Assembly: GCA_963728665.1 (NCBI GenBank)
Contig: CAVSLG010000018.1
Span: 221,096 to 285,095, forward strand
Source: an uncultured Actinomycetes bacterium
GTDB lineage: Bacteria; Actinomycetota; UBA4738; HRBIN12
Length of the DNA: 64,000 nucleotides
Reading direction: 5' to 3'
Below are positions 7,462 to 14,927 of the stretch, piece after piece. A program made the position numbers and the translations under genes. A model generated the notes under the pieces. It was not told where the DNA came from and did not search any database. It worked only from the letters and a program-made list of their open reading frames with translations. Positions within the stretch are counted from its first letter, which is position 1. The number at the start of each line of letters is the position of its first letter.

Positions 7462-8405
7462 GACGCGGCGTCCAGCACCACCGACGCCAGGCGCTCAGCC
7501 GCGTCGTCGTCGACCATCACGGTGTCGGTGACGGCGACCCGCACCCCGGAAGACTCGATACGAGCGATCAGCGCGCGATCACGCTCGTCGATCACCCAAG
7601 CGCCCAGCAACCCGTCGTAGGCGGCCGCGGCGCCGGCGGCGGTCACCTCCAGGCCCAGGGCCGGCATCAGCTTGTCGGCCATGCCGGCCAGCGGCGCGCC
7701 GCCGACGATGCCGCTCACACCCACGACGGCTGCGCGGCGCGCCTCGACCGCCTCGCGCACCCCGGGCACGGCCAGGATCGGCCCGAGCGAGACGACGGGG
7801 TTCGAGGGCGGCAGCACCACCACGTCGGCCGACTCGATCGATGAGAGCACTCCCGGTGCCGGTCGCGAGGTCTCGACCCCCTCGAACCGCACGGCCTTGA
7901 CCGGGTCCGCCGCTCGCCGCTGTACCCAGTACTCCTGGAAGTGCAGGTCGAGTCGTTCGCCGGTTCGGGCGTCGACGGCATCGATGCGGGTCTCGACCCG
8001 ATCGTCGGTGACGGGCAGCAGCCGGGCACCGACGCCGAAACGCCCCGCCACTCGCGTGACGACCTCCGACATCGTGGCTCCCTCGCGCAGCATCGAGGTC
8101 CGCAGCACGTGGGTCGCGAGGTCCAGGTCCCCGAGGTTGAACCATGCATCGGGGGCGCCGAACGCTCGCAGCTCCCCGGCCGCCCGGAACGACTCATCGC
8201 GGCGACCCCAGCCTCGCTCGCGGTCGAAAGCGTCGCCGAGCCAGTACGTGACGGAGTCGGGGTCGGGGCTCACGTGCAGTCCGTGCACGACGATGTCGTC
8301 TGCCACGTTTAGGATCACGGTGAGGTCGCCGCCGGGCACGATACGTGCCATGCCGCGCAAGAACTTCCCCGCGCCGATGCCGCCGGCGAGCGCCACGACC
8401 TTCAT
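7458..8405 (-). CDS. cofD: 2-phospho-L-lactate/PEP transferase (CofD/FbiA)
   Basis: MKVVALAGGIGAGKFL, GLHVSPDPD, WFNLGDLDLATH, LHFQEYWV and PSNPVVSLGPIL motifs. Confidence 0.93.
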   Translation of the reverse strand: MKVVALAGGIGAGKFLRGMARIVPGGDLTVILNVADDIVVHGLHVSPDPDSVTYWLGDAFDRERGWGRRDESFRAAGELRAFGAPDAWFNLGDLDLATHVLRTSMLREGATMSEVVTRVAGRFGVGARLLPVTDDRVETRIDAVDARTGERLDLHFQEYWVQRRAADPVKAVRFEGVETSRPAPGVLSSIESADVVVLPPSNPVVSLGPILAVPGVREAVEARRAAVVGVSGIVGGAPLAGMADKLMPALGLEVTAAGAAAAYDGLLGAWVIDERDRALIARIESSGVRVAVTDTVMVDDDAAERLASVVLDAAS

Positions 8406-8433
8406 CGCCGGACAGCGTAGTAGGCTCGCCGAC
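8406..8433. promoter_or_regulatory. 28-bp divergent promoter region for cofD and fbiC with back-to-back -10 hexamers
   Basis: TAGGCT 8421-8426 lies 7 nt before fbiC ATG8434; TACGCT on the minus strand (8414-8419) lies 8 nt before the cofD ATG; no room for an SD. Confidence 0.6.
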
Positions 8434-10929
8434 ATGCCCCAGGCTCCCGCCCGGCCGAGCGGCCCCGAGCTGCGCCGGGCCCTCGTGCGAGCGGAGCGAG
8501 GGGTGGCGCTCAGCCTCGACGAGACCACCGCCTTGCTCGGCGCCGGGGGCGAGGAGCTGGATCGGCTCCTCGCGATCGCCGCTCAGCTGCGCGACCTCGG
8601 CCACGGCGAGATCGTCACGTACTCCCGCAAGGTGTTCGTGCCGCTCACGATGCTGTGCCGTGACCACTGCCACTACTGCGTGTTCGCGAAGCCACCGGGC
8701 AAGCTCGACGCGCCGTTCCTCACGCCGGACGAGGTCCTCTCGATCGCACGCGCTGGCGCCGAGACGGGCTGCAAGGAGGCGCTCTTCACGCTCGGCGACC
8801 GCCCCGAAGAACGCTACGACGTCGCCCGGGAGTGGCTCGACGAGCGCGGCTTTGAATCCACGCTCGACTACGTGCGGGCCATGGCGATCCGCGTGATCGA
8901 GGAAACGGGCCTGCTGCCCCACCTCAATCCGGGCATCATGAGCTACGAGGAGATCGCCCGGCTGAAGCACGTCGGCGCCTCGATGGGCCTCATGCTCGAG
9001 ACATCGAGCGATCGTCTCTCGGCCAGGGGTGGCCCGCATCACGGCTCGCCCGACAAGGTGCCGGCAGTGCGCCTGCGCACGATCGAGGACGCCGGGCGGC
9101 TGGCGGTGCCGTTCACCACCGGCATCCTCGTAGGCATCGGGGAGACGGCGCGCGAGCGCGCCGAGGCGTTGTTCGAGATCCGCGACCTGCACCGGCGCTA
9201 TCGCCACGTGCAGGAGGTGATCGTTCAGAACTTCCGTGCGAAGCCGGGCACCGCGATGCGCTCGGCACCCGAGCCGGGTGACGAGGAGTTCCTCGCGGCC
9301 GTCGCGACCGCCCGCGTCGTGCTCGGGCCACGCATGCACGTGCAGGCCCCGCCGAACCTCTCCGATCCGGCGCAGCGCCTGCGGCTGCTCGACGCGGGCA
9401 TCGACGATTGGGGCGGCGTCTCGCCGGTCACCCCCGACCACGTGAACCCCGAGAAGCCTTGGCCCCCGATCGATGCCCTGCGCGAGACCACGGCCGCGCG
9501 TGGCAAGACGCTCCGCGAGCGCCTCACCGTGTACCCGGAGTTCGCGGCCAAGCCCGACCCGTTCCTGGCAGGAAAGATGCGCTCACCTGTCGCTGCCTTG
9601 CTCGGCGACGACGGACGGGCGGTCGAAGGGCGGCGGCCGGCCCCGATCCCGTGGCAGGACCCCGACGTGCGCTGGAAGCCGCGCACGATCGCCCTCACGT
9701 TCGCGAAAGAGGGCGGTGCCGGCCTGCGCGAGGACGCCGACGCCGTGTACGGCGAGGCCGACCTCCCGGCCGTGACGTCCGAGTGGGCCCGCAGCAGCGT
9801 CGCGCCCGAACGACTCGAGAGCGAGATCCGGTCGGCTCTGACGAAGGCGTCGGCCCATCGAGCGATCTCCGACGAGGAGGCGCTGGCATTGTTCCGCGCC
9901 GACGGCGCTGCGCTCGACGCGTTGTGCCGCGTCGCCGACGACCTTCGCGCCGATGCCGTCGGTGACACCGTCACGTACGTGATCAACCGGAACATCAACT
10001 TCACGAACGTCTGCTACGTGGGGTGCCGGTTCTGCGCGTTCGCCCAGCGCGAGGTCGACGAGGAGTCGTACACGCTCACGCTGGCGGAGGTCGCCGATCG
10101 GGCCGAGGAAGCGTGGGGCCGAGGCGCGACGGAGGTCTGCATGCAGGGGGGCATCCATCCGGACCTCCCCGGCTCCTTCTACTTCGACGTCGTCGATGCC
10201 GTGAAGCGCCGCACCCCGGCGATGCACGTGCACGCGTTCAGCCCGATGGAGATCCTCAACGGGGCGACGAAGCTCGGTGTGTCGTTCGAGGAGTTCCTCG
10301 CCGAGGCGAAGGGACACGGGCTCGGCACGATCCCGGGCACGGCGGCCGAGATCCTCGACGACGACGTGCGATGGGTGCTCACGAAGGGCAAGCTCCCCGC
10401 AGAAGCCTGGGAGCAGATCGTCCGCACCGCACACGGTCTCGGCATCCGCAGCTCGAGCACGATCATGTTCGGACACGTCGATGCGCCCCCGCACTGGGTC
10501 GCGCACATCCGTCGCATCGGCCGCATCCAAGCCGACACCGGAGGGTTCACTGAGTTCGTCCCGCTTCCGTTCGTGCACCAGCATGCGCCGATCTACCTGT
10601 CCGGCAAGGCGCGCCCCGGCGCGACGTTCGAGGAGAACCTCAGGATGCATGCGATCGCCCGCATCCTTCTCGACGGCCTGATCCCGAACATCCAGGTCTC
10701 GTGGGTCAAGCTCGGCGTCGAGGCGTGCCAGGCGATCCTGCGATCGGGCGCCAACGACTTCGGTGGCACGCTGATGGAAGAGACGATCAGCCGCATGGCG
10801 GGCGCAGAGTGGGGAATCGAGATGACCCCCGACCAGTTCGACGACGCGATCCGAGCGATCGGGCGCACGCCGGCGGTCCGCTCGACCACGTACGACGAGG
10901 TCGAGCGGAAGGAACGTCAGGCATCCTGA
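8434..10929 (+). CDS. fbiC: Bifunctional FO synthase (CofG-CofH fusion, FbiC)
   Basis: Two radical-SAM motifs, CRDHCHYC and CYVGCRFC; YSRKVFVPLT, NRNINFTN and GANDFGGTLMEETISRMAG. Confidence 0.95.
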   Translation: MPQAPARPSGPELRRALVRAERGVALSLDETTALLGAGGEELDRLLAIAAQLRDLGHGEIVTYSRKVFVPLTMLCRDHCHYCVFAKPPGKLDAPFLTPDEVLSIARAGAETGCKEALFTLGDRPEERYDVAREWLDERGFESTLDYVRAMAIRVIEETGLLPHLNPGIMSYEEIARLKHVGASMGLMLETSSDRLSARGGPHHGSPDKVPAVRLRTIEDAGRLAVPFTTGILVGIGETARERAEALFEIRDLHRRYRHVQEVIVQNFRAKPGTAMRSAPEPGDEEFLAAVATARVVLGPRMHVQAPPNLSDPAQRLRLLDAGIDDWGGVSPVTPDHVNPEKPWPPIDALRETTAARGKTLRERLTVYPEFAAKPDPFLAGKMRSPVAALLGDDGRAVEGRRPAPIPWQDPDVRWKPRTIALTFAKEGGAGLREDADAVYGEADLPAVTSEWARSSVAPERLESEIRSALTKASAHRAISDEEALALFRADGAALDALCRVADDLRADAVGDTVTYVINRNINFTNVCYVGCRFCAFAQREVDEESYTLTLAEVADRAEEAWGRGATEVCMQGGIHPDLPGSFYFDVVDAVKRRTPAMHVHAFSPMEILNGATKLGVSFEEFLAEAKGHGLGTIPGTAAEILDDDVRWVLTKGKLPAEAWEQIVRTAHGLGIRSSSTIMFGHVDAPPHWVAHIRRIGRIQADTGGFTEFVPLPFVHQHAPIYLSGKARPGATFEENLRMHAIARILLDGLIPNIQVSWVKLGVEACQAILRSGANDFGGTLMEETISRMAGAEWGIEMTPDQFDDAIRAIGRTPAVRSTTYDEVERKERQAS

Positions 10930-11055
10930 CCAGCGGTCGTCAGTGCGCCTGACGATGGTGTCGACCGTCAGATCGACTTGCGACTTGGCCCCAGGTTCGA
11001 CACGATGGGGTCGACAGACGAGGGATTGAGGCAGGGAACTTCCTCGATGCAGGAC

Positions 11056-11100
11056 TTGTCACCGGGGCGGTTCTTCCCTCAGAATCACATGGATGTGATT
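11056..11100 (+). promoter_or_regulatory. Putative sigma-A promoter of whiB overlapped by a perfect palindrome
   Basis: TTGTCA (11056-61)-N18-CAGAAT (11080-85); AATCACAT-GG-ATGTGATT at 11083-11100. Confidence 0.55.
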
Positions 11101-11117
11101 TCGGGGGGAGAACGAGA

Positions 11118-11345
11118 GTGCATCATTACATCCCTTGGCAAGAACGAGCGCGGTGTCGCGAATACGACCCGGAGATCTTCTTCCCCGAGAAGGGAGGCTC
11201 ATCGAGGGAGGCCAAGCGAATCTGCAGCGAGTGTCCCGTGCGCATCGAATGCCTGAACTACGCCCTCCGTCGTGACGAGCGTTACGGCGTGTGGGGAGGC
11301 ATGAGCGAACGGGAACGCCGACGCCTGAAGCGCATGGCGTCCTGA
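11118..11345 (+). CDS. whiB: WhiB-family Fe-S transcription factor (WhiB/WhiB2-like)
   Basis: W..RARC...DPEIFFPEKGGS.REAKRIC..CPVR.EC and GVWGGMSERERRRL; GGGGAG SD upstream. Confidence 0.95.
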   Translation: MHHYIPWQERARCREYDPEIFFPEKGGSSREAKRICSECPVRIECLNYALRRDERYGVWGGMSERERRRLKRMAS

Positions 11346-11407
11346 GAACGGCCACCACGGTTCGACGAACCGGCTCGACGAGACGACGCAGGGAAAGGGG
11401 AGGGGGC

Positions 11408-11752
11408 ATGGCAGCAGCCAAGAAGACGACCGCGAGGAAGAAGACCGCGGCGCGCAAGCCGGCGGCCCGCAAGAAGACCGCCGCTCGCAAGAAGACCGCG
11501 GCTCGCAAGCCAGCCGCACGCAAGAAGACGACGGCTCGCAAGAAGACCGCCGCGCGCAAGCCGGCGACTCGCAAGAAGACCGCCGCTCGCAAGAAGACCG
11601 CGGCGCGCAAGCCAGCCGCACGCAAGAAGACGACGGCTCGCAAGAAGACCGCCGCTCGCAAGAAGACCGCGGCGCGTAAGCCAGCCGCACGCAAGAAGAC
11701 GACGGCTCGCAAGAAGACCGCGGCTCGCAAGCCAGCCGCACGCAAGCGCTGA
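11408..11752 (+). CDS. Histone-H1-like Lys/Arg/Ala/Thr repeat protein, 114 aa
   Basis: Purine-rich SD; six tandem KKT(T/A)AR-KKTAAR-KPA(A/T)R units; 33 Lys + 20 Arg and no acidic residue; synonymous codon variation between units. Confidence 0.8.
   Translation: MAAAKKTTARKKTAARKPAARKKTAARKKTAARKPAARKKTTARKKTAARKPATRKKTAARKKTAARKPAARKKTTARKKTAARKKTAARKPAARKKTTARKKTAARKPAARKR
11420..11749 (+). repeat. Coding tandem repeat, about 51-bp period built from 18- and 15-bp subunits
   Basis: Recurring aagaagaccgc.gc.cgc and aagcc.gc.gc.cgc subunits. Confidence 0.9.
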
Positions 11753-11772
11753 TCGCGGCTGTCCGTGATCTC

Positions 11773-11797
11773 GAAGGGGGGCTTCCTGCCCCCCTTC
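11773..11797 (+). terminator. Intrinsic terminator-like hairpin after the histone-like gene
   Basis: GAAGGGGGGC-TTCCT-GCCCCCCTTC, a perfect 10-bp stem; weak U-tract. Confidence 0.7.
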
Positions 11798-11852
11798 CGC
11801 GTTCTCCGAGTAGCGTCGTGCTAGGCTCGCCGCCGCTCGGAAGAGCCCTCGC

Positions 11853-14800
11853 ATGACCCAGTCCCCAGCCGCCACGCCCGAGCGCACGCCCACCGTCCTC
11901 GTCGTCCTGGTGGCCCGTGACGCAGCCGCATGGCTCCGCGAGACCGTCGCGGCGCTCGCCGCTCAGTCGTACCCGCGCATGGCCGTGCTCGGGGTCGACG
12001 ACGGTTCCGACGACGACTCAGAGCAGATCTTGGAGCAGGCCCTGGGCGAGCGCCGGGTGATCTCGCTGCCTCGCCCGCGCGGCCTCGCGGGTGCGTTCCG
12101 GGAGGCGATGGAGCAGCCCGCCGCCTCCGAGGCCGATCTCGTCCTCCTGCTCCACGACGACGCCGCGCTCGACCCCGACGCGGTGCAGCGTCTCGTCGAG
12201 GCCGCGGTCGGCATCCGCGGCCTCGACGAGGTCGGCATCGTCGGGTGCAAGGTCGTCGACTGGGACGAGCCTCGCCGCCTGCTCGACGTCGGCCGCTCGG
12301 CGGACATCTTCGGCCACGCGTACACACCGCTGCAGTCGGACGAGATCGACCAGGGGCAGTTCGACCGTGTCCTCGAGGTGCTGTGCGTGTCGTCGGCATC
12401 GATGCTCATCTCGCGACCGGCGTGGAAGCGGGCCGGACTGCTGGACGAACGACTCGACGCCGACCACCAGAGTCTCGATCTCTGCTGGCGGGTGCGGCTC
12501 GCGGGGTTCCGGGTGGTGATGATGCCGCTCGCCCGCGTCCGCCACCGCGACGTCATGCGCTCCCGTGAGCACGCACCGCGCTCGGGACGGCACAGCGTGA
12601 GGTACGAGGAGGACCGCGCTGCGATCGCCACGATGGGCAAGAACTACGGGCTGCTCTCGTTGCTCTGGGTCACGCCGTTGGCGTTGCTGCTCGGGCTGGT
12701 CCGTCTGCTGTTCCTGGCGTTGGCCCGACGGTTCGAGGAGGTCTACGACCTGCTCTCCGCATGGGGGTGGAACGTCGCCCATCTCGGGGGAACCCTCACG
12801 AGGCGCCGTCGCATCCAGCGCGAGCGCCGGGTGAAGGATCGGCAGATCAGGCGCTTCATGGAGACCGCGGGGGTCCGGCTGCCCAGATGGTTCCAGACGG
12901 CAGAGCGCATCCTCGAGGAGCAGCGAGAGATCGACGAGCGCGACGAGGAGGAGACCACCACGCGTCGGCTCCGCGACCGCACCGCGTCGCTCGTCGGATC
13001 GCATCCCGTGATCGTGGGCTCGTTCGTCGCGACGGTCATCGGCGCCGTCACGATCCGTGGGCTCTTCGGAGCTGAGGTCCTCGCGGGCGGGGTCCTGCCG
13101 TCCTTCCCGGTGGCCCCGGACGGGTTCTGGGCAGAGCTGATCTCCGCCTATCGAACGACGCAGCTCGGCGGCACGCTCGCCGCCAGCCCAGCCCTCGGCG
13201 CCCTCGGCGGCCTGTCGTGGCTGACGCTCGGCAGCACCGGTCTCGCACAGAAGGTGGTGCTCGCCGGCGCCCCGGTGCTGGCGGCGATCCTGACCTATCG
13301 GGCGGCGATGCGGCTGACCGGGCGACCCGGTCCGTCGGTGCTGGCGTCCGGCGTGTACGTGCTCTGCGGTCTCACCGTGTGGTCCTTCTCGGAGGGCCGT
13401 TTGGACCTCCTCGTCGCGCTCGCGATCCTGCCGGCCGTCTTCGAACGGGTCGAGACCGCGTTCGGGCCCGAGGCGCCGCCAGACGGACGATGGCGGTTCG
13501 TCGCGGGCGTGGGGGTCACCCTGGCCGTGCTGATCGCGTTCCTGCCCGGTGCGCTGCTCGCGGTGGGCGTGCTCGTCGCGGTCCAGATCGTGGCGGGCTC
13601 GGCGCGGGCCCGTGGTCTCAGCTCGATGGCGCTCGCGTGCGCGATCGCCGCGGTGTTGCTCTTCCCGTTCGTGCCGACGCTCGTAGCAGGAGGCGGAGCA
13701 GCGCTCGTCTCGCAGGTGGGCACGTCCGACCTGCCTCAGCTCGCGCGACTCGCGCCGGGTGGAGGGCCCGGAACCTGGGTGGTGGCGCTCTTCCTGCCGG
13801 TGGCCGCCCTCGTGTCGTTCGCCCTGGTGGGCGCCGAGCTCCGCGGACGCGCGATCCGAGCGATGCTGGTGGCCCTGATCGGCCTGGCGTTGTCGTGGCT
13901 CTCGGCGGCCTGGTGGATCCCGGTGCCGCTGTCGAACCCGCTCGCCTACCTCGCTGTCGCCGCGGTCGCCGAGGTGATGCTGGTGGCCTACGGCGTCTCG
14001 TCTGCGGTCACGGGCCTCGGTCGCGAGGCGTTCGGGATGCGGCAGATCCTGACGGCGATGCTCACGATCGTGATCGGCGGGGGCCTCGTGCTCCAGTCCC
14101 TCGCGGTGCTCGTGGGCGGGTGGGCGGTCGGCGGGCCCGAGCAGGTGCCGGCGGCGTGGTCCGTGCTTGCGAGCACCGCGAAAGGGGACTTCCGGGTGTT
14201 GTGGGTCGGCTCGCACACGAACGACCCGTTCCCCGCGCCCGGTGGCGACCCGCAGGGCGTGGCCGAAGCCGGCGACGCCACCCTGCGCTACGGGCTCACG
14301 GGACGCGACGGCACCGTCGCGATCGACATCGGGCGCCCCGCGGTGGGGTCGGGTCCCGATCACCTCGATGAGGCGCTCGACGAGATCCTCTCGGGCGCGA
14401 CCCGCCACGGAGGAGCGTTGCTCGCACCCTTCGGCGTGCGCTTCGTGATCGCAGCCGATGACGACGTGCCTCCACGAGCGCAGGCGCTGCTCGACGCGCA
14501 GGTCGACCTCGACCTCGTGCCGGCCGCAGGTCTCGTCGTCTACCGCAATGCGCGAGCGATGCCGCCGGCGGCGGTGCTCGAGGACGACCCTCTCTCGATC
14601 GAGGCGATGCGTTCGTCCGAGCCATCGGACATCGTGCGCACGCCCCTGCGCCGAGGATCTTCCCTCGTCCAGGTGCAAGGTGGCTGGGAAGGGGGCGAAG
14701 GCTCGGGCCCGGTTCTCGTCTCGACCGAGTTCCAGGGCGCATGGCAGTTGGAGGGATCCGGAGACACCGCGTTCACTGCCTTCGGTTGGGCGACCGGGTT

Positions 14801-14927
14801 CGACGTCCAGCAGGCGCCCGTCGCCGTGCGGTACGGGGCCCAGATGCCCGCCACGATACAGGCGTGGCTGCTCGCGGTCGTCTGGGCCGCCGCGCTGTGG
14901 ATCACCAGGAAGCCGGTTGCCCGATGA
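11853..14927 (+). CDS. Large GT2 glycosyltransferase fused to a polytopic membrane domain
   Basis: N-terminal GT-A fold (VDDGSDD, LLLHDD, DLCWRVRLAG) followed by more than ten TM segments; usual position downstream of whiB. Confidence 0.85.
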   Translation: MTQSPAATPERTPTVLVVLVARDAAAWLRETVAALAAQSYPRMAVLGVDDGSDDDSEQILEQALGERRVISLPRPRGLAGAFREAMEQPAASEADLVLLLHDDAALDPDAVQRLVEAAVGIRGLDEVGIVGCKVVDWDEPRRLLDVGRSADIFGHAYTPLQSDEIDQGQFDRVLEVLCVSSASMLISRPAWKRAGLLDERLDADHQSLDLCWRVRLAGFRVVMMPLARVRHRDVMRSREHAPRSGRHSVRYEEDRAAIATMGKNYGLLSLLWVTPLALLLGLVRLLFLALARRFEEVYDLLSAWGWNVAHLGGTLTRRRRIQRERRVKDRQIRRFMETAGVRLPRWFQTAERILEEQREIDERDEEETTTRRLRDRTASLVGSHPVIVGSFVATVIGAVTIRGLFGAEVLAGGVLPSFPVAPDGFWAELISAYRTTQLGGTLAASPALGALGGLSWLTLGSTGLAQKVVLAGAPVLAAILTYRAAMRLTGRPGPSVLASGVYVLCGLTVWSFSEGRLDLLVALAILPAVFERVETAFGPEAPPDGRWRFVAGVGVTLAVLIAFLPGALLAVGVLVAVQIVAGSARARGLSSMALACAIAAVLLFPFVPTLVAGGGAALVSQVGTSDLPQLARLAPGGGPGTWVVALFLPVAALVSFALVGAELRGRAIRAMLVALIGLALSWLSAAWWIPVPLSNPLAYLAVAAVAEVMLVAYGVSSAVTGLGREAFGMRQILTAMLTIVIGGGLVLQSLAVLVGGWAVGGPEQVPAAWSVLASTAKGDFRVLWVGSHTNDPFPAPGGDPQGVAEAGDATLRYGLTGRDGTVAIDIGRPAVGSGPDHLDEALDEILSGATRHGGALLAPFGVRFVIAADDDVPPRAQALLDAQVDLDLVPAAGLVVYRNARAMPPAAVLEDDPLSIEAMRSSEPSDIVRTPLRRGSSLVQVQGGWEGGEGSGPVLVSTEFQGAWQLEGSGDTAFTAFGWATGFDVQQAPVAVRYGAQMPATIQAWLLAVVWAAALWITRKPVAR

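What the first reader, a model, noticed from the sequence alone, without database searches (positions are those of the whole stretch)
11056..11797. whiB plus pure-repeat histone-H1-like gene as a bounded two-gene unit
Seen: promoter and palindrome, whiB, a 62-bp gap, a 114-aa protein made only of KKT(A/T)AR/KPAAR repeats (53 basic, 0 acidic residues, no HU or other folded domain), then a 10-bp hairpin. Established: similar repeats occur in Chlamydia Hc2, Pseudomonas AlgP and the mycobacterial HupB tail, which bind or condense DNA; WhiB/WhiB2 controls division and development. Inference: a candidate undescribed module linking a division regulator to nucleoid compaction; the many Thr residues could be phospho-switches.
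Basis: partly seen in the sequence, partly recalled or inferred. Interest (0 to 1): 0.72.

Follow-up and report, generated by a model that had tools for sequence, protein, structure and literature searches.

The report
Histone-H1-like polycation gene behind whiB
Right after the cell-division regulator gene whiB, this uncultured soil actinobacterium has a real, conserved gene for a 114-residue protein made only of lysine/arginine/alanine/threonine repeats. The protein resembles a histone H1 tail; that type is familiar, but its fixed pairing with whiB in several uncultured lineages was not found in the literature searched, and its function is untested.

Summary
The unit reads promoter-like site, palindrome, whiB (75 aa), a 62-nt unstructured spacer with GGAGG, a 114-aa repeat protein (33 K, 20 R, 0 D/E) and a 10-bp G/C hairpin.

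The gene is real. In 63 distinct intact loci of the same uncultured Actinomycetota group, a 45-166-aa basic repeat ORF follows whiB by a median of 23 nt. It keeps a ribosome-binding site, a start codon, a stop and the same hairpin. Substitutions fall at its wobble positions (pN/pS 0.15).

A similar pair occurs in a second, distant uncultured family, there about 210-300 nt apart (stop to start) with its own promoter-like site. It is absent beside WhiB2-type genes of Gordonia, Brevibacterium, Nocardioidaceae and Streptosporangiaceae.

The WhiB is the developmental WhiB/WhiB2 type. HU in this genus is 90 aa and lacks the lysine tail of HupB/HupS.

The protein scores below the cut-off of Pfam HC2, though two syntenic counterparts from other families pass it. 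It shows no predicted fold.

Best reading: a WhiB-co-expressed, Hc2-like polycation that coats DNA. This function is inferred only. The phospho-switch idea is untested.

The parts
11056..11085 (+). Sigma-70-type promoter-like site of the unit: -35 TTGTCA (11056-11061), 18-nt spacer, -10 CAGAAT (11080-11085)
   Evidence: the only match in 10850-11950, with 0.0 expected from shuffles. CTTGtCA and CAGAAT are near-invariant in 81 distinct upstream regions of related genomes.
11083..11100 (.). Perfect palindrome AATCACAT-GG-ATGTGATT overlapping the -10 and the likely transcript start. It is the core of a longer inverted repeat (about 11070-11113). Candidate operator or 5' hairpin.
   Evidence: fold z = -2.7; the arms are conserved while the central 4 nt vary. 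Several families carry AATTACA/TGTAATT, a symmetric change in both arms.
11118..11345 (+). whiB, 75 aa, WhiB/WhiB2 (developmental) type. GTG start; Cys13, Cys36, Cys39 and Cys45; GVWGG turn; basic C-terminus.
   Evidence: Pfam PF02467, 99.5 bits; best solved relative is S. venezuelae WhiB 8dy9_H (E = 1e-31) against WhiB1 (6e-19); 91-100% identical in 38 of 41 related genomes. ATG at the same codon in other families.
11346..11407 (+). Intergenic spacer with no terminator. GGAGG at 11399-11403, 4 nt before the ATG.
   Evidence: fold no better than shuffles (z = +1.2); median spacer 23 nt in 63 loci, with a GGAGG/GGGGG-type purine run before the start.
11408..11752 (+). Gene for a 114-aa polycationic repeat protein (KKT[AT]AR/KPAAR units; 51-nt and 102-nt DNA periods). 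Net charge about +53; no predicted fold.
   Evidence: Synteny. pN/pS = 0.15 in this frame. Pfam HC2 24.4 bits against a cut-off of 40, and NF038053 25.8 against 80. AlphaFold2 gives pTM 0.13 and no secondary structure.
11773..11797 (+). Terminator-type hairpin: 10-bp stem GAAGGGGGGC/GCCCCCCTTC with a 5-nt loop. It is preceded by a smaller hairpin over the stop codon (11751-11770).
   Evidence: -45.3 kcal/mol for 11745-11830, z = -4.1, 0 of 200 shuffles as good; a G-run/C-run hairpin follows the stop in nearly all of 63 loci (median -37.7 kcal/mol over 70 nt), with differing loops and stem variants.

Best explanation
The region is a two-gene transcription unit. One promoter, overlapped by a palindromic operator-like site, drives whiB. 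whiB encodes the Fe-S transcription factor of the WhiB/WhiB2 type, which in studied actinomycetes switches on cell-division and sporulation genes. Directly behind it lies a gene for a free-standing, intrinsically disordered polycation. A strong hairpin ends the unit.

The polycation most likely binds the phosphate backbone of nucleic acid non-specifically, as chlamydial Hc2 and the lysine tails of HupB/HupS do. It would then coat or compact the chromosome whenever the WhiB programme is on, for example at division or on entry into a resting state. In this genus HU has no lysine tail, so the protein may supply that activity in trans.

Shown:
- the gene is real and under purifying selection;
- the pairing, boundaries and terminator are conserved;
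- the WhiB subtype is WhiB/WhiB2;
- the composition is Hc2-like;
- no fold is predicted.

Inferred:
- co-transcription;
- DNA as the ligand;
- compaction;
- any link to division.
For: - Anatomy.
- Conservation: 63 distinct intact loci carry a 45-166-aa ORF with K+R of 0.35-0.54 and essentially no D/E. The median gap after whiB is 23 nt, and the terminator hairpin is conserved.
- Exceptions: the roughly 10 apparent exceptions are the same gene with frame breaks or N runs, mostly in long-read MAGs. One more is a likely chimeric contig.
- Wider sampling: 195 of 294 genomes of the class-level group match by sequence alone. In all 21 genomes where both whiB and repeat-gene coordinates were listed, the two are adjacent.
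- Selection: pN/pS is 0.15 in the K frame against about 2 in shifted frames. Codon use is 33/33 AAG and 18/20 CGC.
- Second lineage: 10-11 loci of family f9 and one of f16 again have a WhiB-type gene followed by a KSTGRK/GRKKAT repeat ORF. That WhiB's best solved relative is S. venezuelae WhiB, E = 5e-28.
- Family scores: two syntenic counterparts from other families of the order pass the Pfam HC2 cut-off (49.5 and 55.1 bits).
- HU in this genus is 90 aa and tail-less.
- Literature precedent: WhiB2 and the lysine-tailed Hlp/HupS orthologue both rise during M. smegmatis resting-cell formation, when the chromosome compacts (PMC5081680). The HupS extra domain is specific to actinomycetes (PMC4255298).
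Against:
- Similarity to Hc2 and the Burkholderia H1-like protein is compositional and below cut-off for this protein.
- Similar repeat proteins can have other ligands. AlgP sits on polyphosphate granules (PMC9239181).
- In family f9 the repeat gene has its own promoter-like site, so an operon is not universal.
- Stand-alone repeat ORFs without whiB nearby exist in families f18 and f66.
- The genome also carries lysine-rich tails on Ku, TopA, FtsK and other proteins. DNA-binding polycation stretches are therefore not scarce here.
- The wobble-sharing antisense frame is open in all 61 genes tested. Assigning the coding frame therefore rests on the SD, start, stop, orientation and terminator.
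Confidence: 0.55

Rival explanations
1. The polycation is real and WhiB-linked, but its main ligand is another polyanion rather than the chromosome. Candidates are polyphosphate granules (as for AlgP), rRNA or ribosomes, or mRNA (Hc-type proteins also bind RNA). It would then organise storage granules or damp translation during the WhiB programme.
For: AlgP, a similar repeat protein, localises to polyP granules and spaces them (PMC9239181, found). The protein has no fold or sequence-specific motif. Many other proteins in this genome already carry DNA-binding lysine tails.
Against: There is no polyP or ribosome gene in the unit. The nearest family models and most characterised relatives (Hc2, HupB/HupS tail, Burkholderia H1-like) are DNA binders. 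The pairing with a regulator of division genes fits a chromosome role better.
Confidence: 0.25
2. The polycation is a direct accessory of WhiB. It would provide in trans the non-specific DNA-contacting tail that other Wbl proteins carry themselves (for example the WhiB7 AT-hook), and so stabilise WhiB-sigma-RNA polymerase complexes at promoters.
For: The pairing is tight, possibly translationally coupled (gaps of 13-25 nt in many families), and recurs in two distant lineages. This WhiB is short (75 aa) with a brief basic C-terminus.
Against: A 45-166-aa repeat array of variable length looks like a bulk coating protein, not a stoichiometric partner. No conserved non-repeat docking segment exists beyond M-A/S-x-A-K/R. 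In f9 the gene has its own promoter-like site. Stand-alone copies exist without whiB.
Confidence: 0.1
3. The ORF is not a functional protein gene. It would be a GC-rich minisatellite that happens to be open, or the product would come from another frame or strand.
For: In this 70% G+C repeat most frames are open. The antisense a1 frame is open in 61 of 61 genes and sense +1 in 54 of 61. Exact look-ups did not find the protein in the 15-billion collection.
Against: The SD plus ATG, the K/R-rich N-terminus, the stop right after the last repeat and the terminator are conserved in 63 loci across more than 8 families. Meanwhile the repeat unit itself changes (KKTAAR, RKSTA, KKRTAKK), always giving K/R/A/T/S/P with no D/E. 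pN/pS is 0.15. The antisense ORF would run through the highly conserved whiB. Gene callers call the + strand ORF in 8 of 10 places.
Confidence: 0.04

Closest known systems
Chlamydial histone H1-like protein Hc2 (HctB; Pfam PF07382, NCBIfam NF038052)
   Same: Both are stand-alone, fold-less, extremely basic proteins built from short K/R/A/T-type repeats, with repeat-number variation between strains (PMC2848022). Both are made in a developmental programme. The only Pfam hit of the window's protein is HC2. Two syntenic counterparts from other families pass the HC2 cut-off.
   Different: The window's protein scores 24.4 bits against a cut-off of 40, and the similarity is compositional. The phylum is different. 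The gene sits behind whiB. No evidence of common descent was found.
C-terminal lysine-rich domain of actinobacterial HU: HupB/Hlp/MDP1 (Mycobacterium) and HupS (Streptomyces)
   Same: Same phylum and the same kind of K/A/T/P repeats. That domain contributes to nucleoid packaging in spores and resting cells, and its expression rises together with WhiB2 in M. smegmatis resting-cell formation (PMC5081680, PMC4255298).
   Different: There it is fused to an HU fold. Here the repeat protein is free-standing, and the genus's HU is 90 aa with no tail.
Pseudomonas AlgP and Burkholderia/Bordetella H1-like proteins (NCBIfam NF038053)
   Same: Lys/Ala/Pro repeat polycations with a sub-threshold model match (25.8 bits).
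   Different: The score is below the cut-off of 80. AlgP acts at polyphosphate granules (PMC9239181). Those proteins are proteobacterial and have no whiB context.
WhiB (Streptomyces) / WhiB2-WhmD (Mycobacterium)
   Same: The first gene of the unit is this type. It has four Cys, a GVWGG turn and the FFPEKGGS motif, and S. venezuelae WhiB is its best solved relative.
   Different: It is shorter (75 aa, no N-terminal extension). In the WhiB2-type loci of Gordonia, Brevibacterium, Nocardioidaceae, Streptosporangiaceae, Nanopelagicales and Egibacteraceae examined, no basic repeat gene follows.

Membership tests
WhiB-like (Wbl) proteins, Pfam PF02467 | Profile match over the curated cut-off | tested here: met
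   99.5 bits against 23.6, residues 7-70 over model positions 1-65
WhiB-like (Wbl) proteins, Pfam PF02467 | Four cluster-binding Cys (C-Xn-C-X2-C-X5-C) and a G[VI]WGG turn followed by a basic tail | tested here: met
   Cys13, Cys36, Cys39 and Cys45; GVWGG; RRRLKRMAS
WhiB/WhiB2 developmental subclass | Closer to S. venezuelae WhiB than to WhiB1, 3, 4 or 7 | tested here: met
   8dy9_H E = 1e-31 against WhiB1 6e-19, WhiB4 2e-14, WhiB3 7e-11 and WhiB7 1e-9. Full orthology by tree was not done.
WhiB/WhiB2 developmental subclass | Controls division or sporulation genes together with WhiA | not testable with these tools
   The lineage is uncultured and no expression data were available.
Hc2 histone H1-like nucleoprotein (Pfam PF07382 / NF038052) | Profile match over the curated cut-off | tested here: not met
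   24.4 bits against 40, and 20.9 against 135. Of 8 syntenic counterparts from the same order tested, 2 pass PF07382 (49.5 and 55.1 bits); neither of the two tested from families f9 and f16 does.
Hc2 histone H1-like nucleoprotein (Pfam PF07382 / NF038052) | Binds and condenses DNA | not testable with these tools
   Needs EMSA or a condensation assay.
Burkholderia-type H1-like DNA-binding protein (NF038053) | Profile match over the curated cut-off | tested here: not met
   25.8 bits against 80
HU / HupB-HupS (Pfam PF00216 plus lysine tail) | HU fold N-terminal to the repeats | tested here: not met
   The repeat protein has no PF00216 hit. The HU genes lie elsewhere and are 90 and about 97 aa, without tails.
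Eukaryotic-type linker histone H1 | Winged-helix globular domain | tested here: not met
   There is no Pfam hit other than HC2. AlphaFold2 shows no secondary structure, pTM 0.13.

The most novel reading that the evidence does not exclude
A free-standing 'bacterial protamine/H1 tail' has been kept beside the WhiB/WhiB2 developmental regulator in at least two deeply separated uncultured Actinomycetota lineages. It is an operon in one and a neighbouring gene with its own promoter-like site in the other. It would be the chromatin arm of the WhiB programme: made with WhiB, it compacts or occludes the nucleoid during division or dormancy in cells whose HU lacks the HupS-type tail. Its regularly spaced Thr/Ser could let Ser/Thr kinases release it again.
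Probability: 0.2. Interest if true: 0.7.

Novelty: new variant of a known kind. Interest (0 to 1): 0.5.

Why it matters
WhiB/WhiB2 is essential for division in mycobacteria and for sporulation septation in Streptomyces. How chromosome compaction is coordinated with that programme is only partly understood.

A hard-wired whiB-polycation pair in large groups of abundant, uncultured soil actinobacteria gives a simple, testable candidate for that coordination. It also suggests that the lysine tail of HupS/HupB can exist as a separate gene.

The pair also matters for annotation. These ORFs carry no annotation, break easily in long-read assemblies, and have mirror-frame ORFs that can be called instead.

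Tried and rejected
- **Wrong frame.** My first family and homology searches for the repeat protein used 11409 and therefore the Arg-rich frame. Those results are void and were redone with 11408.
- **Expression.** There is no RNA evidence.
- **Exact look-ups.** Look-ups of the window's protein, its longer GTG-start version, three antisense ORFs and 12 relatives found none in the 15-billion collection. Yet the ORF is called on contigs. I treat these look-ups as uninformative for low-complexity proteins.
- **ORF openness and GC3.** Neither discriminates the frame in this repeat. The antisense a1 frame is always open and shares the wobble position.
- **phmmer against 5.8 billion proteins.** It gave only 13 weak hits, so I used synteny instead.
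- **PDB sequence search with the repeat protein.** The only hit was an insignificant match to the HrdB lysine-rich region (E = 0.99).
- **AlphaFold2.** It gave no fold, so no fold search was run.
- **Literature.** Three full-text searches found no paper linking whiB to an H1-like gene.
- **Taxon name.** Records are labelled only 'Actinomycetota/Actinomycetes bacterium' MAGs.

Full report
**Observation**

The window lies in a 3.35-Mb, 69.7% G+C metagenome-assembled genome of an uncultured actinobacterium. It is contig C18; the assembly has 31 contigs and is 75% complete.

Between the end of an FbiC-type FO synthase gene (stop at 10929) and a 1024-aa family-2 glycosyltransferase gene (11853-14927), the + strand carries the following elements:
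- a promoter-like TTGTCA-18-CAGAAT at 11056-11085;
- a perfect 18-bp palindrome at 11083-11100;
- whiB at 11118-11345;
- 62 nt of unstructured spacer ending in GGAGG;
- an ORF at 11408-11752;
- a 10-bp G/C hairpin at 11773-11797.

The ORF product is MAAAKKTTARKKTAARKPAAR... It has 114 residues (A36 K33 R20 T18 P6 M1), so 53 basic and 0 acidic. The DNA consists of 51- and 102-nt tandem units that are 83-93% alike.

I must flag an error of my own. My first searches used 11409-11752, which is the wrong frame. The 'no hit' results for this protein are void. I repeated them.

**Is the ORF a gene?**

Openness proves nothing here. In 61 related genes the antisense frame that shares the wobble position is open in all 61, and the sense +1 frame in 54. 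The evidence comes from comparison instead.

I collected loci around the orthologous whiB from 41 related genomes and from 80 public contigs. Among them, 63 distinct loci carry an intact ORF of 45-166 aa directly after whiB. The median gap is 23 nt (range 0-189). Each has a purine-rich ribosome-binding site, a start codon (ATG in most, GTG in a few), an M-A/S-x-A-K/R N-terminus and a stop right after the last repeat. A G-run/C-run hairpin follows within about 30 nt.

The repeat unit changes between families: KKTAARKPAAR, RKSTA, KKRTAKKSTA, AKRSTAAKKGAATK. The composition does not change: K 27%, A 27%, R 19%, T 14%, S 5%, P 4%, with D/E about 0.

Among 59 moderately diverged pairs, pN/pS is 0.15 in this frame. 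It is about 2 when the same columns are read one or two bases shifted. All 33 Lys codons are AAG and 18 of 20 Arg codons are CGC.

The loci that seemed to lack the gene do contain it. About ten have frame breaks or N runs, mostly in long-read soil MAGs, and they begin and end in the lysine frame. One further locus (L091) is a likely chimeric contig.

Gene callers call a + strand ORF of 93-149 aa with no Pfam hit in 8 of 10 places. In one place they call a 324-aa antisense ORF instead.

**Boundaries**

The spacer between whiB and the ORF folds no better than shuffled sequence (z = +1.2). The region after the stop folds far better than shuffles (z = -4.1). The hairpin is conserved with different loops and stem variants across families.

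Upstream, CTTGtCA-N18-CAGAAT and the palindrome arms AATCACA/TGTGATT are near-invariant in 81 distinct sequences, while the central four bases vary. Several families have AATTACA/TGTAATT, a change mirrored in both arms. This fits either a dimeric repressor site or a 5' RNA hairpin.

After the hairpin, a TGCTAGGCT element (11819-11827) recurs in relatives and looks like the glycosyltransferase's own extended -10. The two genes therefore form a bounded unit.

**What the genes are**

The first product is a Wbl protein (Pfam 99.5 bits). Its best solved relative is S. venezuelae WhiB (E = 1e-31), ahead of WhiB1, WhiB4, WhiB3 and WhiB7. It is 91-100% identical across the whole order-level group. The genome has three other Wbl genes, and only this one has the basic neighbour.

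The second product has one Pfam hit, HC2. That hit and both NCBIfam hits fall below their cut-offs:

| Model | Score (bits) | Cut-off (bits) |
|---|---|---|
| Pfam HC2 (PF07382) | 24.4 | 40 |
| NCBIfam NF038053 | 25.8 | 80 |
| NCBIfam NF038052 | 20.9 | 135 |

Among ten syntenic counterparts tested, two pass the HC2 cut-off with 49.5 and 55.1 bits. Both are from other families of the same order. AlphaFold2 predicts no secondary structure and gives pTM 0.13. The protein is thus an Hc2-like polycation by composition and repeat style, not a demonstrable homologue.

**Distribution**

By sequence similarity alone, 195 of 294 genomes of the class-level group match the protein. Wherever whiB coordinates were also listed, the two genes are adjacent: 21 of 21 genomes.

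WhiB2-type genes that are 65-76% identical do not have it. These come from Gordonia, Brevibacterium, Nocardioidaceae, Streptosporangiaceae, Nanopelagicales and Egibacteraceae.

A sample of 401 genomes across the phylum gave matches mainly in one other family, f9. That family is also known only from MAGs. I fetched 20 such places:
- Ten or eleven f9 loci and one f16 locus again show a WhiB-type gene followed on the same strand by a stand-alone KSTGRK or GRKKAT repeat ORF. This WhiB is 55-61% identical to ours, and its best solved relative is again S. venezuelae WhiB.
- In these loci the gap is about 210-300 nt from the whiB stop to the likely start. The spacer holds its own promoter-like CTTGCA-N17-CCTAAT and a separate palindrome.
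- Four loci were cut by contig ends.
- Three loci (two of f18, one of f66) have a stand-alone repeat ORF with no whiB nearby.
- One locus was the tail of a larger protein.

The pairing is therefore not an accident of one clade. It is also not universal, and it is not always an operon.

**Mechanism**

Nothing beyond sequence is available, so this section is inference.

A protein of net charge about +53 with no fold will bind polyanions. The best-studied relatives of this kind bind and condense DNA: Hc2, the HupB/HupS tail and the Burkholderia H1-like proteins.

In M. smegmatis, WhiB2 and the lysine-tailed Hlp rise together when resting cells form and chromosomes compact (PMC5081680). The HupS tail is an actinomycete speciality linked to spore DNA packaging (PMC4255298). 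In this genus HU is 90 aa with no tail.

I therefore favour a DNA-coating or compacting protein made together with WhiB (confidence 0.55). The main rival is another ligand, such as polyphosphate (as for AlgP, PMC9239181) or RNA and ribosomes (0.25). A direct WhiB accessory role (0.1) and a non-gene (0.04) are less likely. The Thr phospho-switch idea has no support or contradiction here, beyond the constant presence of Thr/Ser after the KK pair.

**Novelty**

Three full-text searches found no paper linking whiB to an H1-like gene.

Earlier notes of this scan describe the same pairing in other genomes. One of them reports transcription. These are unchecked AI notes. I treat them as agreement, not as evidence.

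The protein type is known. What is new is the free-standing form in Actinomycetota and its fixed place beside whiB. I classify it as a new variant of a known kind, of moderate interest.

Noticed in passing
window 11070-11113 (core 11083-11100); 81 related loci: The palindrome AATCACA-N4-TGTGATT overlaps the whiB -10. Its arms are conserved, its centre varies, and several families carry a mirrored C>T / G>A change (AATTACA/TGTAATT). This suggests a dimeric repressor site or a 5' hairpin. The binding factor is unknown.
   Followed up: partly
window 11819-11827: TGCTAGGCT, an extended -10-like element about 26 nt before the glycosyltransferase ATG (11853). TGCTAGG recurs after the terminator in many relatives, so the downstream gene seems to have its own promoter.
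   Followed up: partly
L128, L129, L132, L134, L135, L137-L140, L144 (family f9), between whiB and the repeat ORF: The 210-300-nt spacer has a conserved ATGCTTGCA-N17-TGCCTAAT promoter-like site followed by a GAATGCGCG...CGCGCATTC palindrome. This is a different control region from the one in the window's clade.
   Followed up: no
own genome G000: C1:623(-), C30:21227(+), C23:117533(-), C6:93156(-), C10:16795(-), C21:209764(-), C18:12078(+): Lysine-rich KKT/KKST repeat tails are attached to Ku (C-terminus), topoisomerase I (C-terminus), FtsK (N-terminus) and several small proteins of unknown function. One of these is a 178-aa protein with a long KKST array.
   Followed up: no
L022/L046, L023, L024, L044, L047, L052, L055, L056, L011: The repeat gene is broken by one to several frame shifts. 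It starts and ends in the lysine frame, mostly in long-read soil MAGs. These are probably assembly indels in the repeat, and they would make annotation miss or mis-call the gene.
   Followed up: partly
L091 (contig labelled Candidatus Saccharibacteria) and L041 (labelled Planctomycetaceae): Contigs carrying this actinobacterial whiB are binned under unrelated phyla. In L091 the sequence after whiB is unrelated and lower in G+C, which suggests a chimeric contig or mis-binning.
   Followed up: no
window 7672-10929 and L118-L127: An FO synthase (FbiC, CofG/CofH fusion) lies immediately upstream of whiB throughout the genus. From memory, not checked here: whiB2 in M. tuberculosis also neighbours F420 genes (fbiA/fbiB).
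   Followed up: no
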